A stretch of DNA of 64,000 nucleotides, taken from IMG/VR virus record IMGVR_UViG_3300008117_007749. One strand, written 5' to 3'. Both the position numbers and the translations under genes were made by a program. This stretch comes from a virus. The notes below the pieces were generated by a model. It was not told the origin of the DNA. It ran no database searches and worked only from the letters and a program-made list of their open reading frames with translations. Positions 26,540 to 35,911 of the stretch are shown piece after piece. Position 1 is the stretch's first letter; each line of letters begins with the position of its first letter.

Positions 26540-26913
26540 TGGAGATGACCGGCTCTGCCTCCGGTGTCTTCCCTAGCTAACAATAATTATTCATTTACAG
26601 GCTTAGTGAAATTTTTCTAAACTCACAAAATATTTAGTTGAACTAACCCATCACTCTAACAATTCTGGTTTCACATTTTAAACTGTGTGATTCAGCTGGA
26701 GAATTTTTGCGATTAGCTTAAAAGCTTAAACTACTGCTAGCTCTTCTGCCTTAAGCATGTTGTTTTGTAACGCCGCTACTAAATCTTCACGGGATGCTAC
26801 TTCATTTGTTTTGCCATTTACGACTTTTGTTACCTAATTTATTAGTCGGTCATTTAACCACCCGACACCTGCATAACTACCACTACTCTATGAATCTATT
26901 CTATGACATCCCC
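26540..26913 (-). ncRNA. ssrA: Transfer-messenger RNA (tmRNA), about 374 nt
   Basis: 5' GGGGATG pairs with 3' CATCTCC-A, including the G3.U wobble (Ala identity); T-arm ACCGG/CCGGT preceded by GAC; internal tag frame after GTAAAT resumes at GGC (26815) and stops at 26726; size typical. Confidence 0.9.
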
Positions 26914-26934
26914 ATAGTCATTGTAATTATTTTA

Positions 26935-26950
26935 CAAATGTATATATAAT
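26935..26950 (-). promoter_or_regulatory. Overlapping host-type -7 element (TACATTTG) and late-type TTATATATA upstream of the tmRNA
   Basis: Minus strand reads ATTATATATACATTTG, about 20 nt upstream of the mature 5' end. Confidence 0.55.
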
Positions 26951-26974
26951 ATTTGAAAATAAGAAAAAGTTTAA

Positions 26975-27544
26975 TTAAAATGGCATATTATCATCTTCTA
27001 AACCTTCATCTAATGTAAAACCAAACGAAAGTATTCCACCACCGGATTTCGATTGCCAAATGTCAAATTCAGCATCATATTGAGCTAATATATCTCTTTT
27101 AAGTTTGTTAGCTACTTCAAAAACTTTAATAATACTTCTAAGTGTCTCTTTTTTTGCCATATTAACTTCAATGACAATATCCTCATTTCTTTTTGCCGTA
27201 ATCTGAACATTATCAACACCCGAGTTTCTAAACATTTGACGAAGCAAATAAGTTAAATGTTGCACGTCATCATCATCATCATCATCATCTGATTCATATC
27301 CATAGTCATCATCTTCATCATCGAATTTAGGATTTGATGATTTTCTCGAGTTATCACGCGTACTTTCATCGTCATACCAATCATCATAATCTCCATAATC
27401 TTTAGTAGAATCATCATCATATCCATAATCATCTTCTGGCCAACGAGCTTCATTTTTCTTATTAGCAGAAAGTTCGTTATTAAGATGACTAAATTCGTCT
27501 TCTCTGATATTTTCTAAATATTTTATAAATGTTTTTATTTTCAT
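26975..27544 (-). CDS. Asp-rich hypothetical protein
   Basis: Poly-Asp tracts; N-terminus MKIKTFIKYLE. Confidence 0.7.
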   Translation of the reverse strand: MKIKTFIKYLENIREDEFSHLNNELSANKKNEARWPEDDYGYDDDSTKDYGDYDDWYDDESTRDNSRKSSNPKFDDEDDDYGYESDDDDDDDDVQHLTYLLRQMFRNSGVDNVQITAKRNEDIVIEVNMAKKETLRSIIKVFEVANKLKRDILAQYDAEFDIWQSKSGGGILSFGFTLDEGLEDDNMPF

Positions 27545-27545
27545 A

Positions 27546-33442: not shown

Positions 33443-33493
33443 TCAAAAATAATTATTTTTTACCCTTTTAAAGTTGTTGTATATATTCCTAAT

Positions 33494-33526
33494 AAAAAAC
33501 CACCTATTTTAAAAGGTGGATTTTTT
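33494..33526. terminator. Hairpin between the divergent protease and 33625 genes
   Basis: AAAAAACCACCT-attttaaa-AGGTGGATTTTTT. Confidence 0.5.
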
Positions 33527-33624
33527 ATAGTCCTCGAGAACTACTGAAAATAAAAAGACATGTAAAACATTAGTAGGAAGAAGAAACTATTTAATAAATA
33601 ACTTTAAATTTTAAACGGTTTTTT

Positions 33625-34023
33625 ATGATTCTTACCAGAGAAATAAAGATTAAGATTACTGAATCCAATTATCAATACTATGAGGATCTTGGTTACGAAG
33701 TATTAATTGGAGAAAATCTTTTAATACCCGTTGAACTAATGTCTAAAGGATCTCATTACAAGATTAAATGCAAATGTGATATGTGTGGTTTAGAAAAAGA
33801 AGTTATTTTTAAAAACTACGTCAAATATGATAACAACTGGGGAGAATATAATTGTAGAAAATGCTCAGAAAAGAAAAGAAAAGAGACTTTACAAAAAAAC
33901 TACGGAGTGGATTACCCTATACAGAATAAAAAATTAATGGGAAAAATGAAAAAAACTCTCCTAAAAAAATACGGAGTAGAAAACATTTCAAAGAAAGAAA
34001 CTAAACAAAAAGATTCTGAATAA
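33625..34023 (+). CDS. Zn-ribbon protein resembling homing-endonuclease N-terminal modules, no nuclease domain
   Basis: CKCDMCG, CRKC, repeated K(N/K)YGV(D/E). Confidence 0.55.
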   Translation: MILTREIKIKITESNYQYYEDLGYEVLIGENLLIPVELMSKGSHYKIKCKCDMCGLEKEVIFKNYVKYDNNWGEYNCRKCSEKKRKETLQKNYGVDYPIQNKKLMGKMKKTLLKKYGVENISKKETKQKDSE

Positions 34024-34033
34024 TACAACTTCT

Positions 34034-35911
34034 ATGATAAACATAATAGAAGGTGATCGATATGAAGGTCAAATAGAGTTCTCAAATAGTGGAAATGCAA
34101 ACATAACAATTGGAGAAAAGTCAATTTTTATACACAGAAAAAATACTCATAACTCACTACACTTAGATAAAGTAAAAGTAGAAATATTTAAAGGTGAAAA
34201 GAAATTAGAGGGGAAAGTAATTGAAACAGTTTCAAGATTTAGAACAGATTTTGTTGGTAGAGTTCAAATAGGAAAAAAGTCGACATTTGTAATACCAGAC
34301 AGTGATAAATTATCAGTAGATTTTTATATCAAAGGTGGATTAGTTGCAAAAGACGGACAAAAAGTTATTGTAGAACTAACAAAATGGGAAGATTCTAAGT
34401 CACCACAGGGTAAAATAACTAAAATACTCGGAGACGCAGGTGATAACAACGCGGAAATGAACTCAATAATGTATGAGTATAATCTACCGGTTGATTTTCC
34501 ACAAGAAGTTTTAAATGAGTCAGAATTAGTACCTGAAGTAATATTTGAAAATGAAATACTAAAAAGAAAAGATTTAAGAAGTGTAACAACACTAACAATA
34601 GATCCGGTCGATGCTAGAGATTTTGATGACGCTCTTTCAATACAAATAATCAACGAAAATAATATTGAAGTAGGAGTTCATATAGCAGACGTTGGTCACT
34701 ATGTAAAACCAGGAACTAAACTAGATGAAGAAGCTTACAAAAGAGCAACATCGGTATATTTAGTTGATAGATGCGTTCCGATGTTACCTGAGAGACTAAG
34801 TAACGGAATTTGCTCACTAAAGCCACATGAAGATCGTTTGGCCTTTTCTGTAATATTCAATATAGATAAAGATGGGAAAATTATTAAAGAGTGGCACGGA
34901 AAAACGGTTATACACTCAGATAGAAGATTTACTTACGAAGAAGCTCAAGAAATAATCGAAGGATCTGACGGAGACTTTCACAATGAAATAAGAGTTCTTA
35001 ATACATTAGCTCAGAAAATTAGAAAGAAAAGAATAAAAGATGGTTCAATCGAAATGGGAGGAATTGAAGTTCGTTTTAAATTAGCAGAAGATAATAAAAA
35101 ACCTATTGGAGTTTATTTCAAAGAACAAAAAGAAGCTAACAAACTTATTGAAGAATTTATGTTACTAGCTAACAAATCAGTTGCTAAAATACTTTCAGAA
35201 AATCAATGGTTTAATGTTTATAGAATACACGATACACCAAATATGGAAAAATTACAACAACTAGTAGGAGTTTGTGAGAATTTTGGACACAATGTTAAAA
35301 TAGAAGGAGAAGGAGATGATTTAAAAAAATCAATTAATCAACTACTAAAAGAAATAAAAGGAACTCCTGAAGAAAACATGATAGAGACTTTAGTTACCAG
35401 ATGTATGTCTAAGGCTAAATATACTATCAAGAACATTGGTCACTATGGATTAGGTTTCAGTCACTATTCTCACTTTACATCTCCAATTAGAAGATATCCG
35501 GATTTAATCACACATAGAATTTTATTTGATTTTTTAAATAAAGGAAAACAAGGAAATCCTGCTAAAATTGAAGAAAATGCTAGTTGGTGTTCTAGTAGAG
35601 AATTAATAGCAGCAAAAGCACAAAGAGACTCTATAAAATACAAACAAGCTGAGTTTTTACAAGATAAAATTGGTCAAGTTTTTGACGGAATTGTATCAGG
35701 TGTAACAGATTGGGGAATTTATGTAGAATTAACCGAATCCAAATGCGAGGGAATGATAAGATATAATACAATAGGTAAAGTAAAAGTAGATTTAGAACAT
35801 TATACTATTTCAGATGAAATGGGTAATAAAATTAGACTAGGGGATCCTTTAAAAGTTATAGTATCAACAGTTGATTTAGAAAAAAAGCAAATTGACTTTA
35901 AATTATTCTAA
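34034..35911 (+). CDS. rnr: Ribonuclease R (RNB family)
   Basis: TIDPVDARDFDDALS, VHIADV, RATSVYL, LIEEFMLLAN, HYGLG..YSHFTSPIRRYPDL, C-terminal S1 domain. Confidence 0.95.
   Translation: MINIIEGDRYEGQIEFSNSGNANITIGEKSIFIHRKNTHNSLHLDKVKVEIFKGEKKLEGKVIETVSRFRTDFVGRVQIGKKSTFVIPDSDKLSVDFYIKGGLVAKDGQKVIVELTKWEDSKSPQGKITKILGDAGDNNAEMNSIMYEYNLPVDFPQEVLNESELVPEVIFENEILKRKDLRSVTTLTIDPVDARDFDDALSIQIINENNIEVGVHIADVGHYVKPGTKLDEEAYKRATSVYLVDRCVPMLPERLSNGICSLKPHEDRLAFSVIFNIDKDGKIIKEWHGKTVIHSDRRFTYEEAQEIIEGSDGDFHNEIRVLNTLAQKIRKKRIKDGSIEMGGIEVRFKLAEDNKKPIGVYFKEQKEANKLIEEFMLLANKSVAKILSENQWFNVYRIHDTPNMEKLQQLVGVCENFGHNVKIEGEGDDLKKSINQLLKEIKGTPEENMIETLVTRCMSKAKYTIKNIGHYGLGFSHYSHFTSPIRRYPDLITHRILFDFLNKGKQGNPAKIEENASWCSSRELIAAKAQRDSIKYKQAEFLQDKIGQVFDGIVSGVTDWGIYVELTESKCEGMIRYNTIGKVKVDLEHYTISDEMGNKIRLGDPLKVIVSTVDLEKKQIDFKLF

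What the first reader, a model, noticed from the sequence alone, without database searches (positions are those of the whole stretch)
26540..35911. Phage-encoded ribosome-rescue / quality-control set: tmRNA, NFACT-R, RNase R (plus ClpS at 13115)
Seen: a tmRNA, a stand-alone NFACT-R gene 2.2 kb away, and RNase R inserted between the protease and portal genes, all within 10 kb; ClpS lies elsewhere in the window. No SmpB is present in this window. Established: tmRNA/SmpB rescues non-stop ribosomes, RNase R degrades the non-stop mRNA, RqcH (NFACT family) acts on split 50S-peptidyl-tRNA, and ClpS routes substrates to Clp proteases. Inference: the phage reinforces or redirects both bacterial rescue routes, perhaps to recycle ribosomes after host mRNA destruction or to counter defence toxins that cut mRNA or tRNA. 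The lone NFACT-R domain could instead be a dominant-negative mimic of host RqcH.
Basis: partly seen in the sequence, partly recalled or inferred. Interest (0 to 1): 0.75.

Follow-up and report, generated by a model that had tools for sequence, protein, structure and literature searches.

The report
Hidden megaphage tmRNA plus unlinked rescue-type genes
A fragment of a giant (>600 kb) Bacteroidota-type phage carries a genuine but unusual ribosome-rescue RNA (tmRNA) that standard gene finders miss; the nearby NFACT-R, RNase R and ClpS genes are also real, but they are inherited and apparently regulated separately, so they are not one fixed set.

Summary
All four features exist at the stated coordinates. 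The tmRNA (26537-26913, minus strand) is invisible to ARAGORN and falls below Rfam's threshold (26.8 vs 47 bits). It is nevertheless proven by comparison with 47 distinct homologues: 96.7% of cells pair, 42 of 64 pairs show compensatory changes, G3-U is kept, there are two pseudoknots, and a 27-29-codon tag frame is open in every copy.

Compared with Bacteroidota tmRNAs (129-163 bits, 9-residue tags, UUCGAUU T-loop) it has a GGCAGUR-type T-loop and a tag three times as long. SmpB is missing only because the record is about 21% complete. The closest complete relatives (LR745206, LR756502) encode SmpB, and this RNA is their only full-length tmRNA candidate.

- **NFACT-R:** a 127-aa stand-alone domain from a large, mostly viral family. 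It carries an N-terminal leader shared by eight unrelated ORFs.
- **RNase R:** passes the TIGR02063 cut-off, looks Bacteroidota-derived and lacks the N-terminal region.
- **ClpS:** passes the Pfam cut-off.

Across 65 distinct related loci the tmRNA is near-universal (40/41). NFACT-R (44/54) and RNase R (49/62) come and go independently. The tmRNA and NFACT-R sit behind structural-gene promoter motifs; RNase R and ClpS do not.

Verdict: a phage trans-translation system plus separately acquired accessory genes. Phage tmRNA with SmpB is already published, and this scan has met the same family on other megaphage DNA.

The parts
26537..26913 (-). One-piece tmRNA gene. The 5' G is at 26913. The acceptor 3' strand is 26541-26547 and the discriminator A is at 26540. 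CUA follows, so CCA is not encoded.
   Evidence: RF00023 covers the full model at 26.8 bits. Alignment A2 has 48 sequences. RNAalifold recovers the tmRNA architecture. Covariation count: 96.7% paired, 42/64 pairs with compensatory changes, 0/500 shuffles reach any observed measure.
26726..26815 (-). Tag reading frame. A Gly resume codon (GGC) is followed by 28 more codons and TAA. The peptide runs GKTNEV...AEELAVV.
   Evidence: The frame is open for 27-29 codons in all 48 sequences. Every indel is a multiple of 3 and the stop is conserved. The other two frames close within 2-20 codons. ARAGORN at -ps70 picks the same frame.
26511..26531 (-). Intrinsic-terminator-like hairpin followed by a U-run, just after the tmRNA 3' end.
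   Evidence: Terminator scan: 9-pair stem, 5 G-C pairs, then TTTTAATTTA.
26940..26948 (-). Promoter-like motif TATATATAC, 27 nt upstream of the tmRNA 5' end. It is the same motif class found upstream of the capsid, protease, p513 and sheath-like genes.
   Evidence: WATATATAS occurs 15 times against 5.8 expected. At least 13 copies are correctly oriented within 45 nt upstream of a gene start.
29105..29488 (-). Stand-alone NFACT-R protein of 127 aa (the ORF runs up to 29527). Its N-terminus MKYLKYFE belongs to a shared leader family. The W-x-H and G-S-H motifs are invariant.
   Evidence: Pfam PF05670. Best solved-structure match is B. subtilis RqcH residues 438-550, E 8e-16. AF2 model pLDDT 78.6; Foldseek hits are RqcH and CCDC25 NFACT-R domains at TMq 0.65-0.69. 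Start site and conservation. Leader statistics.
34034..35911 (+). RNase R-type 3'-5' exoribonuclease of 625 aa. It lacks the roughly 90-100-aa Lys-rich N-terminal region of Bacteroidota RNase R and ends at the S1 domain.
   Evidence: Pfam RNB 379 bits plus CSD2 and S1. TIGR02063 657 bits, above the 598 cut-off. phrog_13933. Closest cellular homologues are nearly all Bacteroidota at 43-49% identity and 715-744 aa long.
33625..34023 (+). Homing-endonuclease-like ORF that heads the opposite-strand island (33625-36776) holding RNase R.
   Evidence: phrog_5104, phrog_12131 and phrog_3339; DUF7487. It is present in relatives whether or not RNase R is.
13115..13399 (-). ClpS-family adaptor, 94 aa.
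   Evidence: PF02617 at 64.4 bits, cut-off 23. NCBIfam ClpS equivalogs match but below their cut-offs. Orthologues occur in LR745206, LR756502 and LR756504.
29563..31269 (-). Gp23-type major capsid protein; the synteny anchor.
   Evidence: PF07068. 71-83% identical in 80 IMG/VR loci and 76-77% in LR745206 and LR756502.
31349..33442 (-). Head-maturation protease.
   Evidence: phrog_207, E 1.9e-30; weak Peptidase_S77 match.
36773..38500 (-). Portal protein.
   Evidence: phrog_213, E 6.6e-58.

Best explanation
The window is part of a Mahaphage-clade phage of more than 600 kb, probably infecting Bacteroidota. It encodes its own trans-translation RNA.

The tmRNA descends from a Bacteroidota-type tmRNA. 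It keeps the Gly resume codon and the unencoded CCA, and its acceptor stem is identical to that of one Flavobacteriaceae-type tmRNA. It has diverged in the T-arm: the family has a 6-bp stem with a GGCAGUR loop, and this copy has a 5-bp stem with an 8-nt loop. Its tag has grown to 27-29 residues with a non-polar end.

Inferred mechanism: the RNA is transcribed with the structural genes, trimmed, given CCA and charged with alanine through the G3-U pair. A phage-encoded SmpB, which lies outside this fragment, delivers it to ribosomes stalled on truncated mRNAs. This frees ribosomes during heavy late translation and marks the unfinished chains with a phage-specific tail.

NFACT-R, RNase R and ClpS are real, intact accessory genes acquired and kept separately.
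- NFACT-R occupies a variable cargo slot behind the capsid gene and bears the shared N-terminal leader.
- RNase R is a trimmed, host-derived gene in a small opposite-strand island beside a homing-endonuclease-like ORF.
- ClpS is a host-type adaptor 13 kb away.

Together they may all bear on translation and RNA quality control, but they are a loose toolkit, not a module.

Shown: the existence, structure and conservation of each part, and their distribution. Inferred: expression, charging, the SmpB partnership, timing, and the fate of tagged proteins.
For: tmRNA structure: 12 helices are supported. 96.7% of cells pair, against 33-48% when partners are slid. There are 328 compensated cells against 35-82 in the slid controls. 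G3-U is kept in 46 of the 47 distinct rows; the exception is an alignment shift.

Tag frame: open in 48/48 sequences.

Host-phylum comparison: Bacteroidota tmRNAs score 129-163 bits, carry GE[SNE]NYALAA-type tags and a UUCGAUU T-loop, and likewise do not encode CCA.

SmpB: present in LR745206, LR756502, LR756504 and LR756501. In LR745206 and LR756502 no other full-length tmRNA candidate exists.

Distribution in 65 distinct loci: tmRNA 40/41, NFACT-R 44/54, RNase R 49/62, with an odds ratio of about 1.1 between NFACT-R and RNase R.

Promoter motif: shared by the tmRNA and the capsid, protease and p513 genes (NFACT-R has a one-base variant), but not by RNase R or ClpS.

RNase R origin: 43-49% identical to (almost exclusively) Bacteroidota RNase R, with the same C-terminal end.
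Against: SmpB is not on this contig, so the partnership rests on relatives.

The altered T-loop could impair binding of EF-Tu or SmpB. GG at the first two T-loop positions has a precedent only in the alphaproteobacterial and mitochondrial lineage (PMC1168896).

The tag's central hairpin loop is conserved even at synonymous sites, so part of the apparent peptide conservation is an RNA-level constraint.

Independent assortment does not exclude functional cooperation when the genes do co-occur: 24 of 39 fully assessable loci have all three.

The 'late' timing of the promoter motif is inferred only from the genes it precedes.
Confidence: 0.7

Rival explanations
1. The tmRNA, NFACT-R, RNase R and ClpS form a coordinated phage set that reinforces or redirects both bacterial rescue routes (trans-translation and RqcH-type RQC), for example to recycle ribosomes after mRNA destruction or to counter RNA-cutting defence toxins.
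For: All four genes are intact and conserved. All three local elements co-occur in 24 of 39 fully assessable loci, and all four in LR745206 and LR756502. Those genomes add SmpB and a mini-RF. A HAD 'Swiss-army-knife RNA repair' domain protein sits beside ClpS.
Against: NFACT-R and RNase R assort independently (odds ratio about 1.1). RNase R lies at a different place in LR756502. NFACT-R is absent from three of five complete relatives. The strands and promoter contexts differ. The phage RNase R lacks the Lys-rich region of its host-phylum homologues; in E. coli a Lys-rich region is what couples RNase R to tmRNA-rescued ribosomes (my knowledge, not tested here).
Confidence: 0.15
2. NFACT-R is not part of trans-translation at all. 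It is a head-packaged, injected effector that acts like yeast Jlp2, hydrolysing peptidyl-tRNA on stalled or split host ribosomes early in infection. Alternatively it binds tRNA or competes with host RqcH.
For: The leader MK.[ILVT][KRQ].FE begins NFACT-R and seven other unrelated ORFs. Residue shuffles give no hits, and only 2 non-Met occurrences appear in 55,882 residues.

The gene sits between the capsid gene and a peptidase. Where it is absent, other genes fill the slot, several with similar (looser) leader-like N-termini.

The solo NFACT-R protein Jlp2 is reported to be a His44-dependent release factor (bioRxiv 10.1101/2025.09.04.673968). The phage family keeps an invariant W-x-H followed by G-S-H, with the two His residues 8 apart, the same spacing as Jlp2 H44 and H52.

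The solo forms cluster as viral in the Atlas.
Against: The capsid-targeting reading of the leader is by analogy with T4 only; no virion proteome exists. I could not verify the residue-level equivalence of the phage His with Jlp2 H44 using a tool. B. subtilis RqcH carries the same two His residues and is not known to release peptides. The preprint is not yet peer reviewed.
Confidence: 0.3
3. The tmRNA-like stretch is not a working gene. It would be a decaying relic, or a host ssrA fragment carried at a prophage attachment site (IMG/VR labels the record 'provirus').
For: It falls below the Rfam threshold and is invisible to ARAGORN. Prophages often integrate into ssrA (my knowledge). One relative, L019, carries a copy whose first 85 nt do not match.
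Against: It is full length, lies between phage structural and accessory genes, and is syntenic in 40/41 assessable relatives and in complete genomes of more than 630 kb. The amount of compensatory change and the perfectly preserved tag frame are incompatible with drift.
Confidence: 0.02

Closest known systems
Standard one-piece bacterial tmRNA (SsrA, Rfam RF00023) with SmpB, specifically the Bacteroidota type
   Same: Acceptor stem with G3-U and discriminator A, a long P2 helix, PK1 before the resume codon, a Gly resume codon, a downstream pseudoknot, unencoded CCA, and an in-frame tag with a stop.
   Different: It scores 26.8 bits against 129-163. The T-loop is GGCAGUR-type rather than UUCGAUU, and most family members have an extra T-stem pair. 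The tag is 27-29 residues rather than 9 and ends in A/V-rich residues (LAVV, PATV, LATA) rather than ALAA. It contains a covarying hairpin with an invariant loop inside the tag frame.
Phage-encoded tmRNAs and SmpB in huge phages (Al-Shayeb et al. 2020, PMC7162821); also Bxz1-like mycobacteriophages, Bacillus phage G (PMC4131195) and Melnitz (PMC9004378)
   Same: A phage carrying ssrA, with smpB in the largest genomes. The closest relatives here are genomes from that very study.
   Different: That study called tmRNAs with ARAGORN, which finds none of the 64 homologues held here. The paper does not mention NFACT, RNase R or ClpS.
Jlp2/CCDC25, eukaryotic stand-alone NFACT-R proteins (bioRxiv 10.1101/2025.09.04.673968; PDB 7EOE)
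   Same: A stand-alone NFACT-R fold (TMq 0.65-0.69) and two conserved His residues 8 apart.
   Different: By sequence the phage protein is closer to the bacterial RqcH NFACT-R domain (61 bits, against 29 for CCDC25). It lacks the C-terminal coiled-coil, is 127 aa long, and bears a phage-specific N-terminal leader. Its activity is untested.
RqcH (bacterial NEMF-family RQC factor)
   Same: The NFACT-R domain is 38-39% identical to that of B. subtilis RqcH.
   Different: There is no NFACT-N, HhH or coiled-coil-M domain, so it cannot recruit tRNA-Ala or span the 50S as RqcH does. It is not an RqcH.
RNase R (TIGR02063) of Bacteroidota
   Same: The CSD-RNB-S1 core, a score above the equivalog cut-off, 43-49% identity, and the same C-terminal end.
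   Different: It lacks the roughly 90-100-residue Lys-rich N-terminal region, and it sits in a phage island next to a homing-endonuclease-like gene.

Membership tests
tmRNA (RF00023) | Score at or above the Rfam gathering threshold (47 bits) | tested here: not met
   26.8 bits over the full-length model. No hit at the gathering threshold in the window or in five relatives' loci.
tmRNA (RF00023) | tRNA-Ala-like acceptor stem with a G3-U pair and discriminator A | tested here: met
   GGGGAUG pairs with CAUCUCC, followed by A. G-U is kept in 46 of 47 distinct sequences, and positions 5 and 6 show compensatory changes.
tmRNA (RF00023) | T-arm with the canonical T-loop (UUCRANY) | tested here: not met
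   The T-stem covaries strongly (5 of 6 pairs compensated), but the loop is GGCAGUR in the family and AGGCAGAG in this copy. Host-phylum tmRNAs have UUCGAUU.
tmRNA (RF00023) | Long helix 2 joining the tRNA-like domain to a pseudoknot (PK1) that precedes the resume codon | tested here: met
   Helices 2-6 are 90-100% paired and show compensatory changes.
tmRNA (RF00023) | Internal tag reading frame with a conserved resume codon and stop | tested here: met
   48 of 48 sequences are open for 27-29 codons, every indel is a multiple of 3, and the stop is TAA or TAG.
tmRNA (RF00023) | A cognate SmpB in the same genome | tested here: inconclusive
   None in this 21%-complete record. Present in 4 of 5 complete relatives, including both closest ones.
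tmRNA (RF00023) | Expressed, charged with alanine and active in trans-translation | not testable with these tools
Other agents' notes report expression in related genomes; I did not check this.
RNase R (TIGR02063) | Equivalog score above the curated cut-off, with RNase II models below theirs | tested here: met
   657.4 bits against 597.85. RNase II scores 217-249 bits against cut-offs of 542-642.
RNase R (TIGR02063) | Full architecture, including the N-terminal region (model positions 1-67) | tested here: not met
   The match starts at model position 68. Bacteroidota homologues are 90-119 residues longer (715-744 aa), the extra length lying at the N-terminus.
NFACT-R domain (PF05670) | Pfam gathering score and the NFACT-R fold | tested here: met
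   55 bits against 29.8. Foldseek's only significant hits are NFACT-R domains.
RqcH / NEMF family | An NFACT-N domain plus a coiled-coil in the same protein | tested here: not met
   The protein is 127 aa and consists of NFACT-R only.
Jlp2-type release factor | A catalytic His equivalent to Jlp2 H44 in the NFACT-R cavity | tested here: inconclusive
   An invariant W-x-H followed by G-S-H, with the same 8-residue His spacing as Jlp2 H44 and H52. No residue-level alignment to Jlp2 or CCDC25 could be printed.
ClpS (PF02617) | Pfam gathering score | tested here: met
   64.4 bits against 23. NCBIfam equivalogs fall below their cut-offs.

The most novel reading that the evidence does not exclude
The megaphage runs a partly orthogonal trans-translation system. 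A tmRNA with a remodelled tRNA-like elbow has co-evolved with a phage SmpB. Its conserved 27-29-residue tag is not the host ClpXP degron but a phage-specific signal that gives truncated proteins a different fate. In parallel, a leader-bearing solo NFACT-R is packaged and injected as a Jlp2-like peptidyl-tRNA release factor.

One hint, from only five genomes: the relative with a fully canonical tmRNA and a 10-residue tag (LR756500) has no SmpB. The four relatives with SmpB instead carry long-tag tmRNA-like genes, and the three of them with a recognisable T-arm have the divergent T-loop.
Probability: 0.2. Interest if true: 0.75.

Novelty: new variant of a known kind. Interest (0 to 1): 0.55.

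Why it matters
Phage-encoded tmRNA with SmpB is published, so the kind is known. Three things here are new.

1. A whole subfamily of megaphage tmRNAs goes unannotated. ARAGORN finds 0 of 64 copies and Rfam's threshold excludes them. Surveys of translation genes in huge phages therefore undercount tmRNAs, and in LR745206 and LR756502 the SmpB would look like an orphan.
2. The tag is three times the host length, is conserved and ends differently. Whether a phage reroutes the products of ribosome rescue becomes directly testable.
3. Stand-alone NFACT-R proteins form a large, mostly viral family. Following the Jlp2 preprint, they are candidates for a new class of peptidyl-tRNA release factor in bacteria and phages. 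Here the protein carries a leader shared with seven other proteins, which hints at capsid packaging.

The negative result also matters. Clustering of rescue-related genes within 10 kb is not evidence of a module: the distribution data show independent gain and loss.

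Tried and rejected
- **ARAGORN:** default settings and -ps90 to -ps75 find nothing. At -ps70 it reports the right tag frame but a wrong tRNA domain.
- **Rfam:** the gathering threshold gives nothing in the window or in five relatives' loci. The genome search with RF00023 on the window's own record found no candidate.
- **Host RqcH:** I first inferred from the B. thetaiotaomicron control and five Bacteroidota MAGs that hosts lack RqcH, which would have killed the mimic idea. 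A sample of the phylum overturned this (153/201 positive), and I withdrew the inference.
- **Helix scan:** a naive all-against-all helix scan was too noisy in this AT-rich RNA. I used a curated structure instead. The second tag hairpin was left out of the formal count because its register differs between subgroups.
- **GGCRGUA T-loop:** a text search found no paper. The claim that this is the alphaproteobacterial signature is only partly backed: PMC1168896 reports GG in the R. americana mitochondrial T-loop and one G in Caulobacter.
- **Jlp2 H44 mapping:** residue-level mapping onto the phage protein was not possible, because the PDB alignment print-out shows only the top five hits, all RqcH-type.
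- **Other rescue genes:** no Pth in any of the five complete relatives. No mini-RF homologue in this record.
- **Not attempted:** I did not build a covariance model of the full RNA, since at 377 nt it exceeds the practical calibration limit. I did not run complex prediction, because no binding claim here rests on proteins present in the window.

Full report
**Source and relatives.** The window is bases 23382-87381 of a 121.8-kb IMG/VR record. The record has 30.8% G+C, no tRNA genes, and a CheckV completeness estimate of 21%. Its Gp23-type capsid protein is 76-77% identical to those of the complete 635-kb and 642-kb 'huge phage' genomes LR745206 and LR756502. It is 38-53% identical to LR756504, LR756501 and LR756500, and 30% identical to the Lak megaphages. 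This is the Mahaphage clade of Al-Shayeb et al. 2020, predicted to infect Bacteroidetes (PMC7162821). Eighty IMG/VR contigs carry a capsid gene 71-83% identical.

**The tmRNA is real.** ARAGORN and Rfam at gathering threshold report nothing. In E-value mode RF00023 matches 26537-26913 on the minus strand from model position 1 to 374, at 26.8 bits. By eye the RNA begins GGGGAUG and ends CAUCUCC-A-CUA. That gives a seven-pair acceptor stem with G3-U and discriminator A, followed by a terminator hairpin.

The same stretch is 72-76% identical in LR745206 and LR756502, at the same place downstream of the capsid gene. It is found in 64 of 85 loci held. I aligned 48 sequences, 47 of them distinct.
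- RNAalifold, with no prior, returns the tmRNA architecture. Thirty of its 50 pairs show compensatory changes.
- A curated structure of 64 pairs in 12 helices covers the acceptor stem, helix 2, both stems of PK1, a hairpin in the tag, both stems of a second pseudoknot, a 3' hairpin and the T-arm. On it, 96.7% of cells pair, against 33-48% when partners are slid by 1-3 columns.
- Forty-two pairs show double changes. There are 328 compensated cells against 35-82 in the slid controls, and no shuffle out of 500 reaches any observed measure.

**The tag frame.** From the resume codon (26815) a frame of 27-29 codons is open in all 48 sequences. It begins with Gly in 47 and ends at a conserved TAA or TAG. 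Every indel in it is a multiple of three. The other two frames close within 2-20 codons.

**How it differs from host-type tmRNA.** Five Bacteroidota genomes have tmRNAs scoring 129-163 bits. Their tags are of the GE[SNE]NYALAA type and their T-loop is UUCGAUU. They share the Gly resume codon and the lack of an encoded CCA, and one has the identical acceptor stem. The phage RNA therefore looks like a derivative of the host-phylum type, with two changes:
- The T-arm is remodelled. The family consensus is a 6-bp stem with a GGCAGUR loop. The window copy has a 5-bp stem and an 8-nt loop.
- The tag is three times as long and ends in A/V-rich residues.

GG at the first two T-loop positions has a precedent in the Reclinomonas mitochondrial tmRNA, and one G occurs in Caulobacter (PMC1168896). 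Part of the tag's conservation is at the RNA level: its central hairpin covaries while its 12-nt loop is nearly invariant, even at synonymous sites.

ARAGORN at default settings calls none of the 64 homologues. The huge-phage study used ARAGORN.

**SmpB and the wider repertoire.** The record has no SmpB, but it is a fragment. Whole-genome searches of the five complete relatives gave the following.

| Genome | tmRNA | SmpB | Mini-RF (GGQ) | NFACT-R | RNase R | ClpS |
|---|---|---|---|---|---|---|
| LR745206 | this divergent type; only full-length candidate | yes | yes | yes | yes | yes |
| LR756502 | this divergent type; only full-length candidate | yes | yes | yes | yes, at another site | yes |
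| LR756504 | 65 bits, similar odd T-loop, 24-residue tag | yes | yes | no | yes | yes |
| LR756501 | tag-region-like stretch only (21 bits) | yes | yes | no | no | no |
| LR756500 | fully canonical, 10-residue tag | no | no | no | no | no |

The mini-RF ORFs recovered from three of these genomes are 134-142 aa. No genome has Pth. Each genome has 27-62 tRNA matches.

**Co-occurrence.** I counted only loci where flanking genes prove the site is covered, and collapsed loci with identical capsid DNA to 65. The tmRNA is present in 40 of 41; the one miss, L006, ends before the site. NFACT-R is present in 44 of 54, and RNase R at this position in 49 of 62. Where all three are assessable (39 loci), the joint counts for NFACT-R and RNase R are 24 both, 7 RNase R only, 6 NFACT-R only and 2 neither. 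The odds ratio is about 1.1, which means independence.

**NFACT-R.** Pfam, a sequence search of solved structures (best match the B. subtilis RqcH NFACT-R domain, E 8e-16), and a predicted structure (pLDDT 78.6; Foldseek hits only to NFACT-R domains of RqcH, FBPS, CCDC25, Rqc2 and NEMF) all agree on the domain. Most homologues are 127 aa and start at Met14.

The family is large. There are 9,257 representative clusters at E<=1e-3. Many of the best-scoring are solo forms of about 125-140 aa, and RqcH-sized proteins appear from about E 1e-19. The nearest Atlas clusters are labelled viral. W50, H52, G58-S59-H60 and a C-terminal G-Q-V motif are invariant.

A preprint reports that yeast Jlp2, a solo NFACT-R protein, is a release factor that requires His44, with His52 nearby. 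The phage protein has two invariant His residues with the same spacing. I could not verify the alignment residue by residue, and B. subtilis RqcH has both His residues too.

RqcH-sized NFACT-R genes are common in the candidate host phylum (153/201), so competition with a host RqcH cannot be excluded.

**Leader and promoter context.** Following an unchecked note from this scan, I tested the N-terminal leader. The pattern MK.[ILVT][KRQ].FE starts eight ORFs in the record, NFACT-R among them. Two hundred residue shuffles give no hits, and only two non-Met occurrences appear in 55,882 six-frame residues. In relatives that lack NFACT-R, the slot behind the capsid gene is filled by other genes, several with similar, looser N-termini.

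The motif WATATATAS occurs 15 times against 5.8 expected. At least 13 copies are correctly oriented within 45 nt upstream of a start: the sheath-like, capsid, protease and p513 genes, leader-bearing genes, and the tmRNA (26940-26948). NFACT-R and the portal have one-base variants of the motif. RNase R and ClpS have none.

**RNase R and ClpS.** The 625-aa protein passes the RNase R equivalog cut-off. It has a PHROG family. It is 43-49% identical to RNase R of Flavobacteriaceae, Polaribacter, Lutibacter, Prolixibacteraceae and Bacteroidales. Those proteins are 715-744 aa, so the phage copy lacks their Lys-rich N-terminal region of roughly 90-100 aa, while it ends at the same residues. It lies in a plus-strand island (33625-36776) headed by a homing-endonuclease-like ORF, between the minus-strand protease and portal genes.

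ClpS passes the Pfam cut-off. It is found in 117 of 121 sampled genomes of the host phylum and in three of five complete relatives.

**Conclusion.** The strong, new-variant result is the hidden tmRNA and its inferred phage SmpB partner. The 'set' is a loose and variable collection of genes. Phage tmRNA with SmpB is already published, and other agents of this scan reached similar verdicts on related megaphage DNA.

Noticed in passing
window 4823, 14997, 15816, 16438, 29488, 40664, 59461, 61657 (ORF starts): Eight unrelated ORFs begin with the leader MK.[ILVT][KRQ].FE. Residue shuffles give no hits. The leader resembles the T4 capsid-targeting sequence in flavour, so these ORFs may be a head-packaged cargo set. 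One of them (16438-16890) is a SET-domain protein.
   Followed up: partly
window, 15 sites including 4258, 14965, 15804, 19552, 26940, 29092, 31296, 33479, 40668, 46455, 49793, 59467, 61630: The promoter-like motif WATATATAS occurs 15 times against 5.8 expected. Almost every copy is correctly oriented within 45 nt upstream of a structural or leader-bearing gene, so it is probably the phage's late promoter element.
   Followed up: partly
L103 (LR745206 47700-48900), L105 (LR756501), L106 (LR756504); matches at W01:48139-48459, W02:107309-107629, W04:358528-358854, W03:568928-569242: The four relatives larger than 630 kb each encode a small RF-1-domain protein; the three ORFs recovered are 134-142 aa with an intact GGQ motif (the LR756502 ORF was not recovered by my script). 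The C-terminal half looks more like class-I release-factor domain 3 than like ArfB's basic tail. It may be a further ribosome-rescue factor. None is present in this 121-kb record.
   Followed up: partly
L019:14915-15359: One relative carries a tmRNA copy whose first 85 nt do not match the family, with no GGGG 5' end. It is either a 5'-replaced or broken copy, or a rearrangement.
   Followed up: no
L100 (LR756501 718388-718731): In the 735-kb genome only a tag-region-like stretch was found (21 bits, a frame of about 33 codons ending LVLA). The extracted piece has no recognisable acceptor or T-arm. The gene may be permuted or two-piece, or it may be degenerate. This genome still encodes SmpB.
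   Followed up: no
L095 (LR756500 94509-94921) compared: The one complete relative with a fully canonical tmRNA (95.5 bits, tag GNNAEMRMAA, T-loop UUCAAAC) is also the one without SmpB. The four with SmpB carry long-tag tmRNA-like genes, with the divergent T-loop wherever a T-arm is recognisable. With only five genomes this merely suggests co-evolution of the divergent tmRNAs with the phage SmpB.
   Followed up: partly
window 13415-13936 (-): A HAD domain of the 'Swiss Army Knife RNA repair' type (PF10307) lies directly beside ClpS and the large terminase gene.
   Followed up: no
window 26766-26795 (tag hairpin; alignment A2 columns 123-152): A hairpin inside the tag frame covaries (CGU/GCG, AAA/UUU, CAAG/CUUG), while its 12-nt loop GAAGAUUUAGUA is nearly invariant even at synonymous sites. 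This points to an RNA-level ligand or a tertiary contact.
   Followed up: partly
window 25967-26485 (-), 21433-22494 (-), 23183-23710 (-): A NADAR-domain protein lies immediately downstream of the tmRNA and is syntenic in most relatives. A glutamine-synthetase-like protein and a TnsA-like endonuclease lie nearby.
   Followed up: no
whole record (G000): IMG/VR labels the record 'provirus'. All of its close relatives are fragments or complete genomes of phages larger than 600 kb, and I saw no host genes in the parts I examined, so the label is probably wrong.
   Followed up: no
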